From Candidatus Zixiibacteriota bacterium (GTDB lineage: Bacteria; Zixibacteria; MSB-5A5; JAABVY01; JAHJOQ01): a DNA stretch of 64,000 nt. Location of the stretch: the NCBI GenBank assembly GCA_018820315.1, contig JAHJOQ010000073.1, forward strand, positions 13,343 through 77,342, given 5' to 3'. Under the pieces are notes generated by a model. It saw only the letters and a program-made list of their open reading frames with translations, made no database searches and had not been told where the DNA came from. A program made the position numbers and the translations under genes. Shown piece after piece: positions 4,342-44,929 of the stretch (the stretch's first letter is position 1; each line of letters begins with the position of its first letter).

Positions 4342-4375
4342 AGAGGGAAGGCAGAACGCCTTCCCTCTCTTAGTT
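4342..4375. terminator. Bidirectional Rho-independent terminator between convergent genes
   Basis: Perfect 11 bp stem AGAGGGAAGGC / GCCTTCCCTCT with 5 nt loop, followed by CTCTTAGTTT. Lies between the stop of the sigma gene (+) and the stop of the DUF4097 gene (-). Confidence 0.6.
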
Positions 4376-32973: not shown

Positions 32974-33270
32974 TCATCTCTTCGTCCAATGACCGGCTAC
33001 CCAGACATGGCCACGACCCTGTCTCTTGTGATAGCCCGGCACCCAATTTCCTCTGGGATTCCTCTCCCAGTGCCCACTGTTCCAGACGTACATGTGATTA
33101 TTCCACTTCCAGTAACCATCGATCCAGACAGCTTTGGGGCCCGGCCGGGGTGGTTTGATCTCCGACTTAGTTGGTGGCGGCGCTTCGGTGATGACCATCG
33201 GACCAGCACAGCTGTAAGCGTAAAGTGCTATCAGCGCGATCATCCCGAGTACGAACAATGTTTTTCTCAT
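32974..33270 (-). CDS. Small lipoprotein with YXWGXW/WXXGXW repeats
   Basis: Start re-assigned to ATG at 33270 (AAAGGGGA RBS). Signal MRKTLFVLGMIALIALYAYSC (lipobox-like). Four repeats: WIDGYWKWN, WNSGHWERN, WVPGYHKRQ, WVAGHWTKR. Confidence 0.55.
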   Translation of the reverse strand: MRKTLFVLGMIALIALYAYSCAGPMVITEAPPPTKSEIKPPRPGPKAVWIDGYWKWNNHMYVWNSGHWERNPRGNWVPGYHKRQGRGHVWVAGHWTKR

Positions 33271-33620
33271 ATATTCCCCTTTCATATCCACTATCGGCCG
33301 ATTATCTGCGATGTCCATATTGAGGATCATAGAACTTGCGGTAAATGTGATGCGGCGTTCATTTCGAAACACTTCTGCGAGGTGACCTATGCGGATTCTT
33401 GCGTAATGGCTGTGGATATGGCGCATGGGATGTACCCCAGCCACATTAACGATGGCAGATTTCGGAGAATCCTGCACTACAATCGTGTCGAGAGGGTTCG
33501 TTCTTGACCGGCGCGTTGGGATTGTGTATTTTAAGTCATTAATCCCACTTCAGGGTGTGGGCTGCCCAGTGGTTTTGAAGGGTATAGTCTGACAATCATA
33601 CTAACGCAGGGAAGCTTCCG

Positions 33621-37938: not shown

Positions 37939-38520
37939 GTGGCCAAAACATTGATCAAACCAGACGGGTTCATGGTTCCACTGCCTGCGACCCTGCTCTC
38001 CTGTCAGAAGCCGGGGGAGACACCTAACATCATCACGTTGTCATGGGTCGGTGTGCTTTGCAGCGAACCACCGCTGATCGGAGTCGGTATCAGGCCCGGC
38101 AGATATTCTTACGGCATTGTGAAGGAGACCGGTGAGTTTGTTATCAATGTGCCAAATGAAGATCAGGTGGCTGCGTCAGATTATTGCGGGCATGTTTCCG
38201 GCCGCAAGAAGGATAAATTCGCGGAGTGTTCGTTAACAGCGGAAAAGGGTAGTGTCGTTTCGGCGCCGATCATCAAGGAATGCCCCATTAATATCGAGTG
38301 CAGAGTGACTCAGTCGATTGTGCTCGGATCGCATGAGCTTTTTATCGGCGAGATAGTCGCAATACAGGTAGATGAGAATTGTCTCAACGACAAAGGTCAT
38401 GTCGATATCGGCAAAGTGAAACCATTTGTGTATATCCCCGGTTCGAGTGAGTATGTCGGTGGATTTGACAACCTTCTCGGCAGGAGTGGGTTTGCAGCAA
38501 AGAAGCGAACGATGCAATAG
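37939..38520 (+). CDS. Flavin reductase-like (FMN-binding split-barrel) domain protein
   Basis: The sequence pattern (PNIITLSWVGVLCSEPPLIGVGIRPGRYSYGIVKETGEFVINVP...GEIV) is consistent with the flavin reductase like domain. GTG start. Confidence 0.6.
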   Translation: MAKTLIKPDGFMVPLPATLLSCQKPGETPNIITLSWVGVLCSEPPLIGVGIRPGRYSYGIVKETGEFVINVPNEDQVAASDYCGHVSGRKKDKFAECSLTAEKGSVVSAPIIKECPINIECRVTQSIVLGSHELFIGEIVAIQVDENCLNDKGHVDIGKVKPFVYIPGSSEYVGGFDNLLGRSGFAAKKRTMQ

Positions 38521-38563
38521 TGCATCGTTGTTGCGATATTAGATCGCAATTAGTGGAAACAAA

Positions 38564-39829
38564 GTGAGGCGAAAAGTGAGTGGAGCGAAAAGTTGGCACA
38601 GACTACTTGAATATCGAGATTGGATATTCGGAGTGATAGCGGCCGCAGCGGCAGTAATTGGCGTATGGAGTTACTTGCAGCAGCCGGAATTGAGATGGCG
38701 ACACATTGAAACCACTGAACATATGACAGAATCGGGAGATCGCGGACAATATACACTGTTAATCGCCAACAAGGGGTTACGTGATGCCTTTAATGTAACG
38801 TTCGTGGCGAGTCTGGAATATGGTCAGTTAGACTCAGCCAATTTCAATCTCGGACTTTCTGATACCCAGTCAGTGGTACTAGGGCAAACTGACATTGAGA
38901 TCGGACTCTCGCGAATACCCAAAGGAAGCGCATCAGAGATCTACGTTTTCGCCAGTTCGCAGGATAGTCTGCCGAGAGAATTGGAAGTTATCAAGCTAAT
39001 AGGTGATGAAGTGCAGGGCGAAGAGTGGGCTCCAGTAACCAGAGTGTGGAAAGCGGTCTATTCAGGAGTTGTTCTTCTTCTACTACTACTGTGTATCATC
39101 AACATTCGCCGATTGCGATTCCCGAAAGTGCGGTCAGGCGGCTATGAATCAAGTATGACGGATATTGTAACGCAAGACGCTTTGGATGAAATCAAGACAA
39201 TAGGGGCATTTGAATTAAAGGCTGATACAGAGGATAGCAGTTATGAATGGAAGACTGAGCATTTAGCTGGCCTTGAGTGGCTCCAGAATAGAATTAAGAA
39301 TGCCAAGAAGCAGATTTCGATTGTATCGTACTCTTTTGTGTCACTTGAGACCCAGCTTGAGCAAGCTCTCGAGGAATATCTTCAGAAAGACAGTACTTGT
39401 CGTTTGCGCATTCTCCTTCTGCAACCGCATTCTCCTAGTTTCGTACAGAAGACACTACTGGAGTCATTCGATCGCCAGGCAGAGTTATTTACGCCGAGTC
39501 AATGGAACAAAGCCGCTATGGAATTGCGAAAGTTGCATGCCCATGATCTAACCCAGACGTTCTCGATTGTTAAGAGATGGTCCAATAAGTACGGTGCCGA
39601 AAGGGTAAAGTGCAGAACGTACTTTGATACGCCGTTATTTGCAGGTTTCCTCTTTGATGATGATGCATTTTGTCTTTCGTCTTACTTCCTCGATCCGGTG
39701 ATGCGTGGGTTCCACAGTCGACGACTTTGCGTGGAAAGCTGCGGCAATTCCGATGATCTGCAAGTTCTGCGGAAGATCTTTCAGAACTGGTTCACTGTTA
39801 AGTTTGCGATGGGGGGCGAAGCCGGTTGA
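38564..39829 (+). CDS. Hypothetical two-TM membrane protein; C-terminal cytoplasmic domain with phospholipase-D-like sequence pattern lacking the catalytic His/Lys (HxK replaced by FxG)
   Basis: TM1 WIFGVIAAAAAVIGVW. An approximately 130 aa beta-rich extracytoplasmic segment. TM2 VVLLLLLLCIINI. The cytoplasmic region ISIVSYSFVSLETQLEQALEEYLQKDSTCRLRILLL ... RVKCRTYFDTPLFAGFLFDDDAFCLSSYFLD parallels the PLD pattern (i.i.spYf...aL..a..rGV.Vrill ... lHaKvmivDd.wa.iGSaNfD) with H replaced by F and K by G. Confidence 0.4.
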   Translation: MRRKVSGAKSWHRLLEYRDWIFGVIAAAAAVIGVWSYLQQPELRWRHIETTEHMTESGDRGQYTLLIANKGLRDAFNVTFVASLEYGQLDSANFNLGLSDTQSVVLGQTDIEIGLSRIPKGSASEIYVFASSQDSLPRELEVIKLIGDEVQGEEWAPVTRVWKAVYSGVVLLLLLLCIINIRRLRFPKVRSGGYESSMTDIVTQDALDEIKTIGAFELKADTEDSSYEWKTEHLAGLEWLQNRIKNAKKQISIVSYSFVSLETQLEQALEEYLQKDSTCRLRILLLQPHSPSFVQKTLLESFDRQAELFTPSQWNKAAMELRKLHAHDLTQTFSIVKRWSNKYGAERVKCRTYFDTPLFAGFLFDDDAFCLSSYFLDPVMRGFHSRRLCVESCGNSDDLQVLRKIFQNWFTVKFAMGGEAG

Positions 39830-39867
39830 AATCTATCTCGATCAACTGGGTAAGGAGAAGTCAACAT

Positions 39868-40551
39868 ATGTACGCCATAGCCAGATCTTACAATGCGCCT
39901 CGCTTGCGAGGCTTAATCAAGAGACTTGACAGTAGTGATCGGTTTACGGCGATTGTTGTTGTAGTCGATAGCGATCGGGACTCAACTGGGACTGCAGACA
40001 GTGTTTCAGCTATGCGGACACGCACATCCATACGAACAGTCCTTCTGGAGAACTATGGATGGTCCAGAGCCTTGAATGCCGGTATTGATGCCTTGCCACG
40101 TCAGCAGCACGAGAATGAGCTTGTCATGATGATATCTAATGAGGTCGCAATCACGATACCTCAAATCGATGCGCTTGCTGAGAAGGCATCCTCGAAAGAT
40201 GCTTCCTGTAGTTACGTACACTTTAAAGGGCGGTCAGAACCGACTTATTTTGTTCCCAGAAACACGTGCGCAGTGTGGAGGAGAGGTGTTTTTGAAAGAG
40301 TGGGACTTTTTGACGAAAGGTTTGATCACAAGACTGGCATGGAGGACTACGAGCTGGTTTTGCGATCGTATAGAGATGCATCACTGCTTCCTTTTCTGGC
40401 CGCGAGAGGCGTTCCTCTTCGGCTTCCGGAGACTCTTAATCTTGCTGAGAAGCTAGATTGGGAAAGCCGCGGGTTGCTCTGGATCAACTCGCTGTATAGC
40501 GAGCATGTTGTATCAGCGATCGAGGCGCACCTTGCTTCGCAGTTTATATAG
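39868..40551 (+). CDS. Glycosyltransferase family 2-like protein (degenerate: DxD motif not evident)
   Basis: AAGGAGAA RBS 8 nt upstream of ATG. TAIVVVVDSDRDSTGT parallels the GT2 DDGSTD segment. ENYGWSRALNAGIDA parallels the NxG..ARN.Gi segment. ERVGLFDERFDHKTGMEDYELVLR parallels GGFDE...gEDyDl..R. The expected DAD/DxD position reads MMISNEV. Confidence 0.45.
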   Translation: MYAIARSYNAPRLRGLIKRLDSSDRFTAIVVVVDSDRDSTGTADSVSAMRTRTSIRTVLLENYGWSRALNAGIDALPRQQHENELVMMISNEVAITIPQIDALAEKASSKDASCSYVHFKGRSEPTYFVPRNTCAVWRRGVFERVGLFDERFDHKTGMEDYELVLRSYRDASLLPFLAARGVPLRLPETLNLAEKLDWESRGLLWINSLYSEHVVSAIEAHLASQFI

Positions 40552-40632
40552 GAAGGGATTTGAAATCTGCCTCTGGCTGATGGTTTTGATCGTTCTTATA
40601 AGCGCGATCCTGATCTTAGATTACAACGTACA

Positions 40633-41949
40633 ATGAACTTCTTCGCAAGCACAGTCACTACCCTCGCATCAAAAGTACTCACAATATTATTCGGCACACT
40701 CACCGGAGTGCTTACGGCGCGAGCGCTCGGACCATCGGGGCGCGGTACTCTGTCTGTTATCCTCTCGACAGTTTTGATCGGCGTCATATTCGGTGAGTTT
40801 GGCTTGATCGAGGCCAACGCATACATGGCGGCGGGAGACCGACGCAAATCGGCCAAGTTGACTGTCAACAGCCTCTGGAGCTCTATGGGATTTGGAACAT
40901 TGACCGGCTGCGTGATCGTAGCGCTCTATTTGATTTCGCCGGACATTTTCGAAGCAATTCCATTGAGTCTTATGATTGTCGGACTGATATCTGTTCCGTT
41001 CGTGATGCTGGGATTGATGCTGCAGCGCATATATCTGGGGCAGAATCGAATTGTGCAGTTCAACGCCTATGATCTCATTAGTAAGCTGCTGGTATTGATA
41101 CTGACTTTTGTCGGACTCTATCTTCTGCATGTGACACTTTCAACCTATCTAATGATTTACGCGGCCATATTTTGTTTTTCGGGAGTGATATTCTTTCTGG
41201 GGCAGAGAGTGAGCCTCTCAACGATTATGAGACCCGATCTCGGTGTGCTCAAAGAATCGCTTCGATATGGATTCCGTGCGTACATAGCGGTGTCACTGCC
41301 GTTTGTTCTCTCTCGACTTGGACTTTACTTCGTGAACGCACAACTCGGAGCGACCGAAGCGGGGCAATACTCCGTTGCGATGCAGGCCAATGATTTGTTT
41401 CTGATCGTACCTGGCGTCATCGGCACTCTGCTTTTCTCCAGAGTGGCAGCCGACCAGAAGACTCATACACTGACTCTTAAGAGCTTCAGATTCATGCTGA
41501 TGGTTATGCTGCCCATTTTCATACTGGGGCAAATCTTCACACGAGAGCTGGTGCTGTTGCTTTTTGGTGCTGACTTTTTGCCCGCAGTGCTTCTTATGCG
41601 AATCCTGTTCATCGGCGGATTCGCAACTGGTCTCGGGGTCATATTCTTGAATGATCTGGCAGGCAGAGGTTATCCTCTGTTCATAGTCCTGATGTGGCTT
41701 CCATTGTGCGCGATAAACGTAATCCTGAACCTGGTACTGATGAATCTGTGGGGCACCGCCGGCGCAGCAGCATCGCTGGCGGTTACGTATGTATTGGGAT
41801 TCATAGCTGCGGTGCTCTATTTCAGATATTACGTCAAGGTCAGAGGTTGGAGCGGTTTCCTGCCGAGGCCGGGTGATTTCACTGACCTGATTCAATCCTG
41901 TAAGACCGCTGTGGCTGGCCTGACCGGCAGAGGTGAGACTAGACAGTGA
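40633..41949 (+). CDS. MOP-superfamily oligosaccharide/polysaccharide flippase (Wzx-like) integral membrane protein
   Basis: 438 aa with about 12-14 predicted TM helices distributed as in Wzx/RfbX 'polysaccharide biosynthesis protein' family members. The sequence is hydrophobic throughout. Confidence 0.55.
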   Translation: MNFFASTVTTLASKVLTILFGTLTGVLTARALGPSGRGTLSVILSTVLIGVIFGEFGLIEANAYMAAGDRRKSAKLTVNSLWSSMGFGTLTGCVIVALYLISPDIFEAIPLSLMIVGLISVPFVMLGLMLQRIYLGQNRIVQFNAYDLISKLLVLILTFVGLYLLHVTLSTYLMIYAAIFCFSGVIFFLGQRVSLSTIMRPDLGVLKESLRYGFRAYIAVSLPFVLSRLGLYFVNAQLGATEAGQYSVAMQANDLFLIVPGVIGTLLFSRVAADQKTHTLTLKSFRFMLMVMLPIFILGQIFTRELVLLLFGADFLPAVLLMRILFIGGFATGLGVIFLNDLAGRGYPLFIVLMWLPLCAINVILNLVLMNLWGTAGAAASLAVTYVLGFIAAVLYFRYYVKVRGWSGFLPRPGDFTDLIQSCKTAVAGLTGRGETRQ

Positions 41950-42062
41950 TGAGTAAGACACGATTTAGGATATAAGAGGCAGGTTTCGGGCAAACTTACA
42001 CAGCCAGTCGCCTGCACAGCCACCGACCGCGTTTATTATTTGCCTGTTTTACGAAAATGTGA

Positions 42063-42091
42063 TTGCCTTGGATCACCTTTGTATATATTAT
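42063..42091 (+). promoter_or_regulatory. Candidate sigma-70-like promoter (TTGCCT-17-TATTAT) for the methyltransferase gene
   Basis: TTGCCT at 42063-42068, a 17 nt spacer, then TATTAT at 42086-42091, about 25 nt upstream of ATG 42118. Confidence 0.35.
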
Positions 42092-42117
42092 CGATTCGAG
42101 AACATCCACAGGAGAAG

Positions 42118-42972
42118 ATGGTGATCCAAAGAAATCTGTTGCCGGTTAATAAGATAATCTGCGGGAATTGCGAAGAAGTCTTGAAGGGATTCCCTGAGGA
42201 CTCGGTGGATCTTATCGTTACATCTCCACCGTACGCCGATAGCAGGAACAGTACATATGGCGGCATACATCCTGATGAGTATGTGGACTGGTTTTTGCCC
42301 AAGGCAGTTGAATTCCATCGTGTTCTAAAACCTACGGGAACATTCATATTGAACATCAAGGAGAAGGCCGTCCGTGGAGAGCGCCACACTTATGTATTAC
42401 AGTTGATACTCCGGCTCCGCGAAGAGGGTTGGCTTTGGACGGAGGAATTCGTGTGGTACAAGAAGAACTGCTATCCAGGCAAATGGCCGAACAGATTTAG
42501 GGATGCATGGGAACGATGCCTTCAATTCAATAAGCAGAAGAAATTCGCCATGTATCAAGATGAGGTTATGGTGCCGATGGGAGAATGGGCCAAATCGCGG
42601 CTCAAGAACCTCAGCGAAACCGACAAAATCCGGGATGAGTCAAGGGTCGGTAGCGGTTTTGGCAAGAATATTTCCAATTGGCTCCGGAGAGATAAGGCTT
42701 ATCCATCAAATGTCTTGCATTTGGCCACCGAATGTTCTAACAAGAATCACAGCGCGGCATTTCCCTTGTCGCTGCCAGAGTGGTTCATTAAGCTCTTCAC
42801 CAAGAGAGGCGACCTCGTGCTTGATCCCTTTAATGGATCGGGGACTTCTGCCATTGCCGCCAGGAAGCTGGGGCGGAAGTATATCGGCGTGGATTCGAAC
42901 CTCGAGTACTGCTTAATGGCCGAGAGGCTTCTGAAGAGCGAAGACAGGCAGGTAGTCATATGGAACAACTGA
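42118..42972 (+). CDS. DNA methyltransferase, beta-class (N4-cytosine or N6-adenine; SPPY motif IV precedes motif I)
   Basis: NKIICGNCEEVLKGFPEDSVDLIVTSPPY carries motif IV SPPY. The C-terminal LDPFNGSGTSAIAA carries the motif I FxGxG AdoMet site. The order IV then I is typical of the N6_N4_Mtase beta class (e.g. PvuII/RsrI-type). The ORF-track start at 42040 was moved to ATG 42118 (AGGAG RBS). Confidence 0.8.
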   Translation: MVIQRNLLPVNKIICGNCEEVLKGFPEDSVDLIVTSPPYADSRNSTYGGIHPDEYVDWFLPKAVEFHRVLKPTGTFILNIKEKAVRGERHTYVLQLILRLREEGWLWTEEFVWYKKNCYPGKWPNRFRDAWERCLQFNKQKKFAMYQDEVMVPMGEWAKSRLKNLSETDKIRDESRVGSGFGKNISNWLRRDKAYPSNVLHLATECSNKNHSAAFPLSLPEWFIKLFTKRGDLVLDPFNGSGTSAIAARKLGRKYIGVDSNLEYCLMAERLLKSEDRQVVIWNN

Positions 42973-43706
42973 GTTTGAAGGATGTAGAGAAATTTGTTAG
43001 CACGGAAATCGTCACCTTTCACAAGAACAAACTTGAGATTTTGAAGCGGAAAAAACTTCAGAAGCTTCTAAGAGATAAGAATCCGTATCTCTTCAAGGCC
43101 AAGAACATTCTCATCGCCTCGGACTTGGTTACCAACATAATGGATGCTTACCTGTATGCTTCTGAGGAGAAACTCTTCGGTGATTTTCTGGAGGAACTGG
43201 CGATTTTTGTTGCCGGAAAGACATACGGGGGAAGAAAGTCATCGGCAACTGGCATTGACCTAGAGTTTGAGAAGTGTGGTAGACATTATCTGGTTTCAGT
43301 GAAATCTGGACCCAATTGGGGAAACAGCTCTCAACAGAAGAAGCAACAGACTGACTTTCAGAAGGCAGTCGGAGTACTCAAGCAGTCCCGATCTGAAGCT
43401 ATGGTCGAACCAGTTCTGGGAATCTGCTATGGCAAGTCTAAGACGAAGCATCTAAGAGGTTACACAAAGGTCATGGGACAGCTCTTCTGGAATCTTCTTG
43501 GCGGCAATCCAAATCTGTATACTGACATAATTGAACCGTTAGGTCATGATGCGAAGAAGCACAATGAAGAATTCTTGAAACAAAAGGCAGTCATAATCAA
43601 CACATTTACAGCGGAATTCCTGAAGGAATTCTGCGGCAGTGGCCAAATATGCTGGGATAAGCTTGTCAAATTCAATAGTGGAAACATGACGGACGATGCT
43701 TCCTAA
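42960..43706 (+). CDS. Hypothetical protein; candidate cognate Type II restriction endonuclease (by context only)
   Basis: Overlaps the MTase stop by 13 nt, suggesting co-transcription and translational coupling. No database-recognisable motif. The segment TGIDLEFEKCGRHYLVSVKSG could form a divergent PD-(D/E)xK core. AT-richer than the flanks by eye. Confidence 0.35.
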   Translation: MEQLSLKDVEKFVSTEIVTFHKNKLEILKRKKLQKLLRDKNPYLFKAKNILIASDLVTNIMDAYLYASEEKLFGDFLEELAIFVAGKTYGGRKSSATGIDLEFEKCGRHYLVSVKSGPNWGNSSQQKKQQTDFQKAVGVLKQSRSEAMVEPVLGICYGKSKTKHLRGYTKVMGQLFWNLLGGNPNLYTDIIEPLGHDAKKHNEEFLKQKAVIINTFTAEFLKEFCGSGQICWDKLVKFNSGNMTDDAS

Positions 43707-43804
43707 CGTGCTGCTGGCCGCGGAGATGGTAAAAACGCCACATTGCAGAATTGTCGGGCACTTGCTTCAGTATACATGCTCACCAAAAGGCATACTTCGC
43801 GAAC

Positions 43805-44929
43805 ATGGTAATACATTTCAACATAATACATTATGATCCTTCTTCCCGTGCGCGCACGGGTGAAGTGACGACTGCGCATGGGACATTCCCGACGCCGGCG
43901 TTTATGCCGGTCGGGACTGCGGGTGCGGTCAAGGCTGTATCCGCCGATGATCTCGAAGCGCTCGGTTTTGATATCATCCTCGGTAACACATATCATCTCT
44001 ATCTGCGTCCCGGCACCGATGTTATCGAACATGCAAGTGGATTGCACAGATTCAATTCATGGAAGAAATCGATCCTGACCGATTCGGGTGGATTCCAGGT
44101 GTTTAGCCTCGGTGAGTTGAGCAAAATCAATGACGAGGGTGTGACGTTCAAATCGCATCTCGATGGGTCATCGCATCTCTTCACGCCGGAAAAAGTCGTC
44201 GATATTCAGCGGATACTGCGGTCAGATATCATGATGCCGCTCGATCAATGCGTAAAGTTCCCGACGGAGCACGATGATGCGGCCAAGGCGGTCGATCTGA
44301 CGCTCGACTGGCTGAAGCGATCTGTTGATGCATGGAGGCCGCTATCAGATAAGCAGGCGCTGTTCGGAATAGTGCAGGGATCAACGTACAAAGACCTTCG
44401 AACCATAGCGGCCGAGACCACAGTCGAACTCGAATTGCCCGGTTATGCAGTCGGTGGGCTGTCTGTCGGGGAGCCGAATGATCTGATGCTGGAGCTTGCC
44501 GATCACACTGTGCAGTATCTCCCGGAAGATCGACCGCGATATCTGATGGGGCTCGGTACTCCGGTCGAGCTTCTGGAAGCAATCGCCCTCGGCTATGATA
44601 TGTTCGACTGCGTGCTTCCGACCCGCAACGCGCGCAATGCGACCCTCTTGACCACCAATGGTCGAATGATAATCAAGGCAGCTCGTTATAAGAGAGATTT
44701 TCGTCCAATCGATGAAGATTGCGGCTGCCTGACCTGTCGGCAATATCACCGGGCGTATTTGCGCCATCTCTTCAATATCAATGAGCCATCAGCTCTTAGA
44801 TTATCCACGATACACAATCTCTACTTCACATCGCGCCTGATGCAGGATTCTCGCAAAGCCATTGCTGACGGTCGTTTCGGGGTGTTTCTGGAACAATTCA
44901 AAGGCCGCTATGTTAATAACGACAGGTAA
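43805..44929 (+). CDS. tgt: Queuine tRNA-ribosyltransferase
   Basis: RARTGEVTTAHGTFPTPAFMPVGTAGAVKAVSADDLEALGFDIILGNTYHLYLRPG parallels E. coli Tgt. Zn-binding CGCLTCRQYHRAYLRHL. Start placed at the ATG matching the N-terminal alignment. Confidence 0.88.
   Translation: MVIHFNIIHYDPSSRARTGEVTTAHGTFPTPAFMPVGTAGAVKAVSADDLEALGFDIILGNTYHLYLRPGTDVIEHASGLHRFNSWKKSILTDSGGFQVFSLGELSKINDEGVTFKSHLDGSSHLFTPEKVVDIQRILRSDIMMPLDQCVKFPTEHDDAAKAVDLTLDWLKRSVDAWRPLSDKQALFGIVQGSTYKDLRTIAAETTVELELPGYAVGGLSVGEPNDLMLELADHTVQYLPEDRPRYLMGLGTPVELLEAIALGYDMFDCVLPTRNARNATLLTTNGRMIIKAARYKRDFRPIDEDCGCLTCRQYHRAYLRHLFNINEPSALRLSTIHNLYFTSRLMQDSRKAIADGRFGVFLEQFKGRYVNNDR

What the first reader, a model, noticed from the sequence alone, without database searches (positions are those of the whole stretch)
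38521..43806. Apparently lower-GC accessory island inserted between a flavin reductase gene and tgt-yajC-def-fmt
Five consecutive genes with no housekeeping assignment: a two-TM PLD-like protein, a GT2-like protein, a flippase, a methyltransferase and a putative restriction enzyme. They sit between strongly conserved loci (radA/flavin reductase upstream; tgt-yajC-def-fmt downstream). By eye the island is more AT-rich than its flanks, roughly 42-47% versus about 52% GC. A small palindrome TTGCGAT-N5-ATCGCAA marks the left border. No integrase or tRNA is visible, so the acquisition mechanism is unclear.
Basis: partly seen in the sequence, partly recalled or inferred. Interest (0 to 1): 0.5.

Follow-up and report, generated by a model that had tools for sequence, protein, structure and literature searches.

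The report
Mosaic defence islet with new gene pair
The 5.3 kb between a flavin reductase gene and tgt in this Zixibacteria genome is a real, mildly AT-rich accessory patch made of an ordinary, plasmid-borne type of restriction-modification system, a lone flippase gene, and a rare, apparently undescribed two-gene module whose relatives carry known anti-phage effector domains.

Summary
It is still the lowest-GC and most tetranucleotide-deviant 5.3 kb of the window. There is no tRNA, integrase or flanking repeat.

The flavin reductase|tgt junction is variable. One distant relative has radA-flavin reductase-tgt contiguous. A closer relative carries 7 kb of unrelated genes there.

The segment is a mosaic of three parts.
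1. An M->R operon. The N4/N6 DNA methyltransferase is 67% identical to one on Enterobacter ColE1-type plasmids. Its partner is a PmeII/EcoO109I-family endonuclease. This is a known kind of system.
2. A MOP/Wzx-like flippase, not linked to the other genes in any relative examined.
3. ORF3 plus ORF4, a gene pair conserved in 9 independent contexts from at least four phyla.

My reading (inference) is that ORF4 makes a ligand and ORF3 senses it and acts as effector, here through the membrane.

The parts
37939..38520 (+). Left flank: flavin reductase gene (native, syntenic with radA upstream)
   Evidence: PF01613 E 1.8e-36. radA-flavin reductase adjacency is conserved in L006 and L084.
38508..38550 (+). 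Two tandem hairpins in the 55-bp gap after the flavin reductase gene. The first has a 9-bp stem and spans the stop codon.
   Evidence: RNA fold -21.4 kcal/mol, z -4.3, no shuffle as stable. Other 9-bp-stem hairpins in the window mostly lie at gene ends. The sequence is not conserved after the flavin reductase gene in L006 or L084.
38576..39829 (+). ORF3, 417 aa. Layout: TM1 (aa 16-35), a beta-rich segment of about 115 aa predicted to lie outside the cytoplasm, TM2 (aa 154-183), then a cytoplasmic C-domain (aa ~225-415; nt ~39248-39820) with a PLD fold but no HKD motif.
39868..40551 (+). ORF4, 227 aa. A GT-A/GT2-like protein with a well-conserved set of polar residues, but S-N-x where GT2 enzymes have DxD. 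It is the conserved downstream partner of the ORF3-type gene.
   Evidence: Full-length homologues at 34-47% identity lie 2-88 bp downstream of the C-domain gene in L164-166, L167, L170/171, L172/173, L174, L175, L176/177 and L178. All 6 members scanned hit PF10111 below threshold, best E 1e-4. PHROG galactosyl transferase E 5e-5. AGGAG lies before the ATG at 39868. Most atypical codon choice of 50 genes.
40633..41949 (+). ORF5, 438 aa. MOP-superfamily (Wzx-like) flippase with about 12 hydrophobic segments. It is not part of the conserved pair.
   Evidence: PF13440 at 41.6 bits, above the 23-bit cut-off. Hydropathy. No homologue in any context of the pair or in related loci. Tetranucleotide content is host-like (33rd percentile), but codon choice ranks 4th of 50.
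42118..42972 (+). Beta-class N4-cytosine/N6-adenine DNA methyltransferase with an SPPY motif; first gene of the R-M operon.
   Evidence: PF01555 E 1e-42. Closest solved structure is M.PvuII, an m4C enzyme, E 2e-33. PADLOC MTase_II E 2e-49. 67% identical to the MTase of plasmid NZ_AP022470.1. SPPY read from the translation.
42960..43706 (+). PmeII/EcoO109I-family Type II restriction endonuclease; overlaps the MTase gene by 13 bp.
   Evidence: PF14511 E 5.8e-71. Thousands of homologues; best non-self 68% identity; some named by NCBI 'PmeII family type II restriction endonuclease'. 47% identical to plasmid-borne copies with the same M->R layout.
42061..42136 (.). 17-nt inverted repeat (88% complementary, 42 nt apart) bracketing the MTase start codon. 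It may be a regulatory element of the R-M operon.
   Evidence: the repeat finder I8; not followed up.
43805..44929 (+). Right flank: tgt, followed by yajC-def-fmt-rng (native; conserved order in L004, L005, L006, L059).
   Evidence: TIGR00430 E 3e-149; synteny; start as called in the NCBI record.

Best explanation
The 5.3 kb between the flavin reductase gene and tgt is a mosaic accessory segment at a junction that varies between Zixibacteria lineages. It was assembled from at least two, probably three, independently acquired units. Its likely common theme is defence.

Unit A (shown by homology). This is a Type II restriction-modification operon. A beta-class m4C/m6A methyltransferase protects the host's own DNA, and a PmeII/EcoO109I-family endonuclease cuts unmodified DNA. 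The recognition site is probably of the GGWCC/GGNCC/RGGNCCY type; that specificity is inferred from the family only.

Unit B (the gene pair is shown; the mechanism is inferred). ORF3 and ORF4 belong to a rare, previously undescribed two-gene module. ORF4, a conserved GT-A-like enzyme, would make or modify a small ligand, plausibly derived from a nucleoside-diphosphate sugar. The HKD-less PLD-fold C-domain of ORF3 would bind that ligand, as the PLD-fold sugar-binding domain of TrmB binds sugars. Binding would switch on the variable N-terminal module. In relatives that module is a CBASS/Pycsar-type TIR NADase, a Ser/Thr kinase, a nucleotide cyclase or a wHTH. In this window it is a two-helix membrane module, which would compromise the membrane. 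The logic resembles CBASS, Pycsar and Thoeris, which pair a signal synthase with a sensor-effector.

Unit C. A lone MOP flippase of unknown connection to the rest.
For: Accessory and variable locus:
- Empty-site-like arrangement in L084, and radA-tgt adjacency in L017 and L026.
- Different cargo in L006, and different upstream neighbours of tgt in L004 and L005.
- The cargo genes of those relatives are absent from the window.
- The segment is the lowest-GC and most tetranucleotide-deviant stretch of the window. ORF3 and ORF4 have atypical GC3 and codon choice.

R-M unit:
- PF14511 E 6e-71 and PF01555 E 1e-42.
- The same overlapping M->R layout on mobilizable ColE1-type plasmids, with the MTase 67% and the REase 47% identical.
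- PmeII corresponds to GGWCC (PMC8112702).

Gene pair:
- An ORF4 homologue lies immediately downstream of an ORF3-C-domain gene in 9 independent contexts. Host GC ranges from 27 to 57%.
- Pairwise distances of the two genes correlate, r = 0.80, Mantel p = 2e-4.
- Named relatives come from Acidobacteriota, Alphaproteobacteria and Chlamydiota.
- Family N-termini include TIR_2, TIR, ThsB_TIR, CAP12-PCTIR_TIR, Guanylate_cyc, Pkinase, Trans_reg_C, HTH_31 and DUF4062.
- The TIR of P0131 matches CBASS effector TIR (E 2e-45) and PycTIR (E 2e-31). The kinase of P0140 matches PD-T4-6 (E 2e-94). The N-terminus of P0136 matches PDC-S60 (E 4e-49).
- Defence-type neighbours occur here (the R-M operon) and in L167 (PRTase_III-A E 5e-37, a Dam-type MTase, a ParB_N protein).
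- In L168 a NUDIX hydrolase takes ORF4's place directly downstream. NUDIX enzymes also act on nucleoside-diphosphate-linked compounds (established knowledge).
Against: - No integrase, tRNA, direct repeats or transposase mark an insertion.
- No close relative is available, so an old native variable region cannot be excluded.
- The compositional signal is modest and inconsistent between measures. The R-M genes have typical codon choice, and ORF5 has typical tetranucleotide content.
- RGGNCCY is not under-represented in the window (14 observed against 11.6 expected). GGNCC and GGWCC are only mildly low (observed/expected 0.75 and 0.87).
- For the pair, the defence role rests on domain sharing and on 2 of 9 neighbourhoods. 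The other 7 neighbourhoods are not defence islands.
- wHTH, kinase and cyclase outputs fit ordinary signal transduction equally well.
- The GT-A assignment of ORF4 is below every curated threshold, and no structure was predicted for it.
- No ligand, enzymatic activity or protein-protein contact was tested.
- The N-terminal membrane module of ORF3 is unique to this genome. Its AF2 model is unusable (pLDDT 41).
Confidence: 0.55

Rival explanations
1. ORF3, ORF4 and ORF5 work together as a cell-envelope glycoconjugate or lipid-modification module. A GT2-like transferase builds a lipid-linked sugar, a MOP flippase exports it, and a membrane-anchored PLD-like phosphotransferase attaches or remodels it. 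The R-M system is just a neighbour.
For: The three genes are consecutive on one strand with short gaps of 38 and 81 bp. ORF5 passes the Pfam cut-off for Polysacc_synt_3. ORF4 has weak GT2 and galactosyl-transferase matches. ORF3 is membrane-anchored with a PLD-fold domain, and the PLD superfamily includes phosphatidyl transferases such as PssA. All three have atypical codon choice.
Against: None of the other 8 complete contexts of the ORF3C/ORF4 pair, nor the truncated L169, contains a flippase. Most relatives of ORF3 are soluble fusions to TIR, kinase, cyclase or wHTH domains. The HKD motif that all PLD-type phosphotransferases need is absent from the family. ORF4 lacks DxD. No other polysaccharide genes lie next to the segment.
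Confidence: 0.12
2. The ORF3/ORF4 pair is an ordinary signal-transduction module rather than an immune one. ORF4 makes or converts a sugar metabolite, and the PLD-fold domain senses it, as TrmB senses sugars, to drive transcription, phosphorylation, cNMP synthesis or a membrane response.
Against: Several members carry TIR domains of the CBASS/Pycsar/Thoeris effector types. These are NAD+-degrading immune effectors in all characterised bacterial cases (established knowledge). The family is rare, patchy across phyla and often lower in GC than its host locus, which is typical of mobile conflict genes. It sits beside an R-M system here and beside PRTase_III-A, an MTase and a ParB_N protein in L167.
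Confidence: 0.2
3. There is no island. The five genes are long-resident, lineage-specific genes, and their lower GC reflects amino-acid composition and low expression rather than foreign origin.
For: No mobility signatures. The GC difference is only 3.4 points. The MTase and REase have typical synonymous codon choice, and their low GC comes from codon positions 1 and 2. The same arrangement is seen in every copy of this population (L001-L003).
Against: The MTase is 67% identical to an Enterobacter plasmid gene, across phyla. The ORF3/ORF4 pair is scattered over at least four phyla. The junction holds different cargo or none in relatives. The segment is the compositional extreme of the window.
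Confidence: 0.1

Closest known systems
PmeII / EcoO109I-family Type II restriction-modification systems (Pfam PF14511; plasmid-borne example NZ_AP022470.1 of Enterobacter roggenkampii)
   Same: The endonuclease matches PF14511 at E 6e-71 and is 47% identical to the plasmid copies. The methyltransferase is 67% identical. Both have the same M->R order with overlapping genes.
   Different: The host is a Zixibacteria chromosome rather than a small mobilizable plasmid. The methyltransferase is an N4/N6 (SPPY, M.PvuII-like) enzyme, whereas Pseudomonas mendocina, the source strain of PmeII, carries m5C at GGWCC (PMC8112702). The recognition site here is unknown. EcoO109I itself is too distant to be found by phmmer against the PDB.
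Signal-synthase plus sensor-effector immune systems (CBASS, Pycsar, Thoeris)
   Same: Two-gene logic: one conserved enzyme next to a protein that joins a constant putative ligand-binding domain to interchangeable effector modules. The TIR of relative P0131 matches CBASS effector TIR and PycTIR models. Transmembrane effectors, as in this window, also occur in Pycsar and CBASS.
   Different: There is no CD-NTase, pyrimidine cyclase or ThsB-type signal producer. The enzyme is GT-A-like. The presumed sensor is a PLD fold, not SAVED, STING, cNMP-binding or SLOG. ORF3 and ORF4 match no PADLOC model. No signalling molecule is known, and function is untested.
TrmB-family regulators (wHTH plus PLD-fold sugar-binding domain) and FAM83 DUF1669 pseudo-PLD domains
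   Different: Sequence identity is only 9-18%, with no detectable sequence homology. The domain sits at the C-terminus of many different N-terminal modules and is always paired with ORF4. A long helical insertion (residues ~60-112 of the model) is specific to this family.
HKD phospholipase D / Nuc-type nucleases (NucT, Nuc, Zucchini; DISARM DrmC)
   Different: The HxK(x)4D(x)6GSxN motif is not conserved. The His position is N, L or variable, and the Lys position is variable. The only near-invariant His lies in a helix. Canonical phosphodiesterase chemistry is therefore unlikely.

Membership tests
Type II restriction-modification system (PmeII/EcoO109I family) | Endonuclease of the family (Pfam PF14511) above the curated threshold | tested here: met
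   238.8 bits against a cut-off of 22.5, E 5.8e-71.
Type II restriction-modification system (PmeII/EcoO109I family) | Adjacent DNA methyltransferase with catalytic and AdoMet motifs, in one operon with the endonuclease | tested here: met
   PF01555 at 147 bits. SPPY and FNGSGT motifs read from the translation. 13-bp overlap with the REase gene. The same layout occurs on plasmid NZ_AP022470.1, with the MTase 67% identical.
Type II restriction-modification system (PmeII/EcoO109I family) | Defined recognition sequence, cleavage and protective methylation | not testable with these tools
   Site counts in 64 kb are inconclusive: GGWCC observed/expected 0.87, GGNCC 0.75, RGGNCCY 1.2.
Genomic island (horizontally acquired insertion) | Composition deviates from the host genome | tested here: met
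   Lowest GC and highest tetranucleotide distance of all 5.3-kb windows. The deviation is modest (3.4 GC points) and uneven among the genes.
Genomic island (horizontally acquired insertion) | Integrase or transposase, tRNA target, flanking direct repeats | tested here: not met
   No tRNA in the window. No convincing flanking repeats. No recombinase domain in the island genes or their neighbours.
Genomic island (horizontally acquired insertion) | Absent from related genomes that keep the flanks adjacent | tested here: inconclusive
   flavin reductase-tgt are adjacent in L084, and radA-tgt in L017 and L026, but these are only about 50% identical. The closest relatives (73-79%) have other cargo or other upstream genes. 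No genus-level genome was available.
Phospholipase D (HKD) superfamily | PLD fold | tested here: met
Phospholipase D (HKD) superfamily | HxK(x)4D(x)6GSxN catalytic motif | tested here: not met
   There is no HxK in the window protein or in the 26-sequence family consensus. The equivalent stretch reads TPx[L]xGFxxDxxxxxxSSYF. The correspondence with the HKD strand was made by eye, not from a structural superposition.
Glycosyltransferase family 2 (GT-A fold) | Match to a GT2 profile above the curated threshold | tested here: not met
   PF10111 19 bits against a cut-off of 27.3; PF00535 15 bits against 23.3. All 6 family members give sub-threshold hits. PHROG galactosyl transferase E 5e-5. No PDB sequence match.
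Glycosyltransferase family 2 (GT-A fold) | DxD metal/nucleotide-sugar binding motif | tested here: not met
   The position reads S-N-E, S-N-D, S-N-K or S-T-T across 9 homologues. The assignment of this position was made by eye.
MOP-superfamily flippase (Wzx-like) | Polysacc_synt-type profile above threshold and a polytopic membrane protein | tested here: met
   PF13440 at 41.6 bits against a cut-off of 23. About 12 hydrophobic segments. Substrate is unknown.
Known anti-phage systems (PADLOC-DB 2.0: CBASS, Pycsar, Thoeris and others) | Match of the system's signature proteins | tested here: not met
   ORF3, ORF4 and ORF5 have no PADLOC match. Only the N-terminal domains of some ORF3 relatives match effector models.

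The most novel reading that the evidence does not exclude
ORF3/ORF4 represent a new class of signal-based anti-phage (abortive-infection) system. A GT-A-fold enzyme produces a messenger derived from a nucleoside-diphosphate sugar. An HKD-less PLD-fold domain reads that messenger and triggers interchangeable effectors: TIR NADase, kinase, cyclase, wHTH, or, in this genome, a membrane module.
Probability: 0.25. Interest if true: 0.85.

Novelty: new variant of a known kind. Interest (0 to 1): 0.55.

Why it matters
As an 'island' the finding is routine. A small restriction-modification cassette of a plasmid-borne family has landed at a variable junction in an uncultivated phylum.

The value lies in the two genes next to it. 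They form a tightly linked, co-varying pair found in at least four phyla. It was absent from the defence-system catalogue searched (PADLOC-DB 2.0) and from the literature library searched. Its domain grammar is that of signalling immune systems, a constant enzyme plus a constant sensor domain with swappable TIR, kinase, cyclase, HTH or membrane heads.

If the pair is an immune system, it would add a new enzyme fold (GT-A) and a new sensor fold (a non-catalytic PLD domain) to the repertoire of bacterial second-messenger immunity. It would also point to sugar-nucleotide chemistry as a source of immune signals. Even if it is not immune, it defines a new ligand-sensor domain family with a cognate enzyme.

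Tried and rejected
- Word-index homology search with ORF3 found only itself. The same tool run with the C-domain alignment A2 found nothing, a sensitivity limit of the tool rather than evidence of absence.
- Single-sequence AF2 of full-length ORF3 was unusable, pLDDT 41. The N-terminal beta-rich domain therefore stays unassigned.
- Profile searches of the C-domain (A2) and ORF4 (A4) families against PDB sequences gave nothing meaningful.
- ORF4 has no relatives in the plasmid, phage or IMG/VR collections.
- The AFDB fold library was not available.
- Inferring the restriction site from site avoidance in 64 kb was inconclusive. Only the commonly avoided CTAG, and GGCC, are clearly under-represented.
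- The palindrome as an att-like border was rejected. It is a single copy, unremarkable on its own, has no partner at the right border, and is not conserved in relatives.
- A rearrangement explanation was rejected. The genes that relatives carry upstream of tgt are not elsewhere in the window.
- The metagenome scan with the flavin reductase found no relative above 53% identity, so close-relative synteny could not be obtained.
- Literature searches for DUF5919, for GT + PLD + TIR defence systems, and for TrmB/PLD-like sensors found no description of this pair.

Full report
**Source and setting.** The window is part of contig JAHJMQ010000017.1 of the metagenome-assembled genome GCA_018821285.1. 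NCBI labels its proteins 'candidate division Zixibacteria bacterium'. The closest Tgt proteins among species-representative genomes are 73-81% identical and come from Zixibacteria-type assemblies. The segment lies in a long run of + strand housekeeping genes. Upstream are purC, purH, coaBC, a UDG-domain gene, dnaB, mlaE, mlaF, radA and the flavin reductase gene. Downstream are tgt, yajC, def, fmt and an RNase E/G-family gene called rng here.

Measured GC is 47.7% for 38521-43806 and 51.1% for the rest. The 500-bp windows inside the segment range from 45.0 to 50.8%. The segment is also the most tetranucleotide-deviant 5.3 kb, 0.194 against 0.130 +/- 0.016.

The signal is uneven.
- GC3 is low in ORF3, ORF4 and the endonuclease, but host-like in ORF5 and the methyltransferase.
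- Synonymous codon choice ranks ORF4, ORF3 and ORF5 as 1st, 3rd and 4th most atypical of 50 genes. The two R-M genes are typical.
- By tetranucleotides the R-M pair is the most deviant sub-unit (top 0.4%), ORF3-4 is in the top 3%, and ORF5 is unremarkable.

The palindrome exists at 38531-38549 but is not unusual on its own. Together with a 9-bp-stem hairpin that spans the flavin reductase stop codon it forms a tandem hairpin element, -21.4 kcal/mol with z -4.3. This resembles the gene-end hairpins seen elsewhere in the window, and it is not conserved in relatives.

There is no tRNA, no Rfam family, no flanking direct repeat and no recombinase.

**Synteny.** None of the five genes occurs in about 160 related loci.
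- In L084, a metagenome contig with proteins about 50% identical, the order is radA'-flavin reductase-tgt, with 115 bp between the last two.
- In L017 and L026, radA abuts tgt.
- In L008, mlaEF abut tgt.
- In L006 (Tgt 73% identical), mlaF-radA-flavin reductase is followed by 7 kb of unrelated genes and then tgt-yajC-def-fmt-rng. The unrelated genes encode an SH3 protein, two M14 peptidases, a GNAT and an unknown protein.
- In L004 and L005, tgt has other upstream neighbours.

Those cargo genes are not found elsewhere in the window. The junction upstream of tgt is therefore a variable site in this clade, and the window's cargo is specific to its own population (L001-L003). No genus-level relative was found, so the timing and mechanism of acquisition remain open.

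**Unit A, restriction-modification.** The 248-aa protein matches PF14511 (RE_EcoO109I) at E 6e-71. It has thousands of homologues. The best non-self match is 68% identical, and named ones come from Planctomycetota and include 'PmeII family type II restriction endonuclease'.

The upstream gene, which overlaps it by 13 bp, is an N6_N4 DNA methyltransferase with an SPPY motif. Its closest solved relative is the m4C enzyme M.PvuII.

The same M->R layout occurs on small mobilizable ColE1-type plasmids of Enterobacteriaceae and Aeromonas. Against Enterobacter roggenkampii pSTW0522-66-5, the methyltransferase is 67% and the endonuclease 47% identical. That level of identity between a Zixibacteria chromosome and gammaproteobacterial plasmids shows the cassette moves horizontally.

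PmeII corresponds to GGWCC (PMC8112702). From my own knowledge, EcoO109I cuts RGGNCCY. The site here is unknown, and site counts in 64 kb do not decide it. This unit is a new member of a known kind.

**Unit B, the ORF3/ORF4 pair.** ORF3 has no match in Pfam, NCBIfam, PADLOC or PHROGs. An exhaustive HMMER scan of 1.84 billion cluster representatives found 26 relatives. All align only to the C-terminal ~190 residues, at 30-38% identity.

The family has no HxK...D motif. The only near-invariant histidine lies in a long helix.

The N-termini of the relatives differ widely:
- TIR_2, TIR and ThsB_TIR domains
- a CAP12/Pycsar-type TIR
- nucleotide cyclase
- Ser/Thr kinase
- wHTH (Trans_reg_C) and HTH_31
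- DUF4062
- short membrane anchors

Against PADLOC, the TIR of P0131 matches CBASS effector TIR (E 2e-45) and PycTIR (E 2e-31). The kinase of P0140 matches PD-T4-6 (E 2e-94). The N-terminus of P0136 matches candidate system PDC-S60 (E 4e-49).

In the window, the N-terminal part consists of two transmembrane helices around a beta-rich segment of about 115 aa. Positive charges flank the cytoplasmic ends, so the PLD-fold domain should be cytoplasmic (topology inferred by eye from the positive-inside rule).

**ORF4 is the conserved partner.** In every context with enough sequence except one, the gene directly downstream of the C-domain gene (2-88 bp) is a full-length ORF4 homologue at 34-47% identity. 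The contexts are L164-166 (TIR), L167 (cyclase), L170/171 (kinase), L172/173 and L178 (membrane anchor), L174 (PycTIR-like), L175 (wHTH) and L176/177 (DUF4062), plus a truncated copy in L169.

The exception is L168. There a NUDIX hydrolase follows the C-domain gene and the contig then ends.

Pairwise distances of the two genes correlate, r = 0.80 and Mantel p = 2e-4. Host loci range from 27 to 57% GC, and the pair is often more AT-rich than its surroundings. Named members come from Pyrinomonadaceae, Alphaproteobacteria and Rhabdochlamydiaceae.

ORF4 is better conserved than the C-domain: 66% mean column identity over six sequences and 55 invariant positions. The conserved blocks include GWSxA[LI]NAG, SC, RxExxYxxPRNT, GxF[DN]E and GMEDY. 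All six members scanned give sub-threshold GT2 matches, and ORF4 weakly matches a phage galactosyl-transferase family. The block pattern resembles GT2 enzymes by eye, but the DxD position reads S-N-x.

No flippase, methyltransferase or endonuclease homologue accompanies the pair elsewhere. Neighbourhoods are defence-like in two of nine cases: the R-M operon here, and PRTase_III-A plus a Dam-type MTase and a ParB_N protein in L167.

**Mechanism (inferred).** The grammar is one constant enzyme next to a protein that joins one constant non-catalytic fold to interchangeable output domains. Some of those outputs are the very TIR types used as CBASS and Pycsar effectors. This is how signal-synthase and sensor-effector systems are organised.

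The PLD fold serves as a sugar sensor in TrmB. GT-A enzymes and NUDIX hydrolases both handle nucleoside-diphosphate-linked compounds (established knowledge). I therefore propose that ORF4 makes or modifies such a ligand, that the C-domain senses it, and that this activates the N-terminal module. In this genome that module is a membrane one.

I put about 0.35 on this sensor-effector logic and about 0.25 on it being anti-phage immunity with a new messenger. An ordinary metabolite-sensing module is the main alternative.

**Unit C, the flippase.** ORF5 passes the Pfam threshold for Polysacc_synt_3 and has about 12 hydrophobic segments. It is not linked to the pair elsewhere, and no polysaccharide genes lie next to the segment. 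Its composition gives mixed signals. It could be a third independent acquisition, a native gene, or a lineage-specific addition to the membrane-anchored version of the pair. I cannot tell which.

**Comparison and verdict.** The segment is accessory, sits at a variable junction and includes at least one clearly mobile cassette. It is, however, a mosaic without recognisable insertion machinery, and the GT2-plus-flippase reading is not supported by comparative context.

The R-M system is ordinary. The ORF3/ORF4 pair matches nothing in PADLOC-DB 2.0, and I found no description of it in the paper library. That is not proof of novelty. I rate the whole as a new variant of a known kind, a small defence-type islet, with moderate interest that comes from the gene pair.

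Noticed in passing
window 38508-38550: Two tandem hairpins (9-bp and 8-bp stems) directly after and overlapping the flavin reductase stop codon; -21.4 kcal/mol, z -4.3. No T-run follows. Similar 9-bp-stem hairpins lie near 4343, 7762, 16813, 28801, 59554 and 62467; four of these lie within about 30 nt of the end of a listed ORF. This suggests a genome-wide 3'-end hairpin habit without U-tracts.
   Followed up: partly
window 42061-42077 / 42120-42136: A 17-nt inverted repeat (88% complementary, 42 nt apart) brackets the methyltransferase start codon at 42118. It could regulate expression of the R-M operon, which has no C-protein gene.
   Followed up: no
L167 231-2871 (Logan DRR027581 contig): Directly upstream of a cyclase-type ORF3/ORF4 pair lie three genes: a Dam-type D12 methyltransferase, a ParB_N protein and a PRTase-CE protein (PADLOC PRTase_III-A, E 5e-37). 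This may be a separate defence module, so the contig looks like a defence island.
   Followed up: partly
L168 314-2002 (Logan SRR22388172 contig): The one context where the C-domain gene (P0128) is followed by a NUDIX hydrolase instead of an ORF4-like gene. The contig ends there. This hints that the module's chemistry involves nucleoside-diphosphate-linked compounds.
   Followed up: partly
L178 2372-4672: A 766-aa protein with no Pfam, PADLOC or PHROG match lies about 600 bp downstream of a membrane-anchored ORF3/ORF4 pair.
   Followed up: partly
window, whole: CTAG (observed/expected 0.30, z -5.9) and GGCC (0.64, z -5.6) are strongly under-represented. GGSCC (0.55) and CCWGG (0.68) are also low. 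This could reflect other restriction systems of the host, present or past.
   Followed up: no
window 32974-33507: Two overlapping ORFs on opposite strands, 167 aa on - and 172 aa on +, between the UDG-domain gene and dnaB. The NCBI record calls a 98-aa WXXGXW-like protein on the - strand, while the Logan assembly calls the 172-aa + strand ORF. The annotation is ambiguous.
   Followed up: no
L006 2997-9886: In the closest relative that keeps radA-flavin reductase, the same junction holds different cargo: an SH3 protein, two M14 carboxypeptidases, a GNAT and a 473-aa unknown protein. Its GC (52.6%) is close to that of its flanks (53.8%). The junction therefore takes up varied genes, not only defence genes.
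   Followed up: partly
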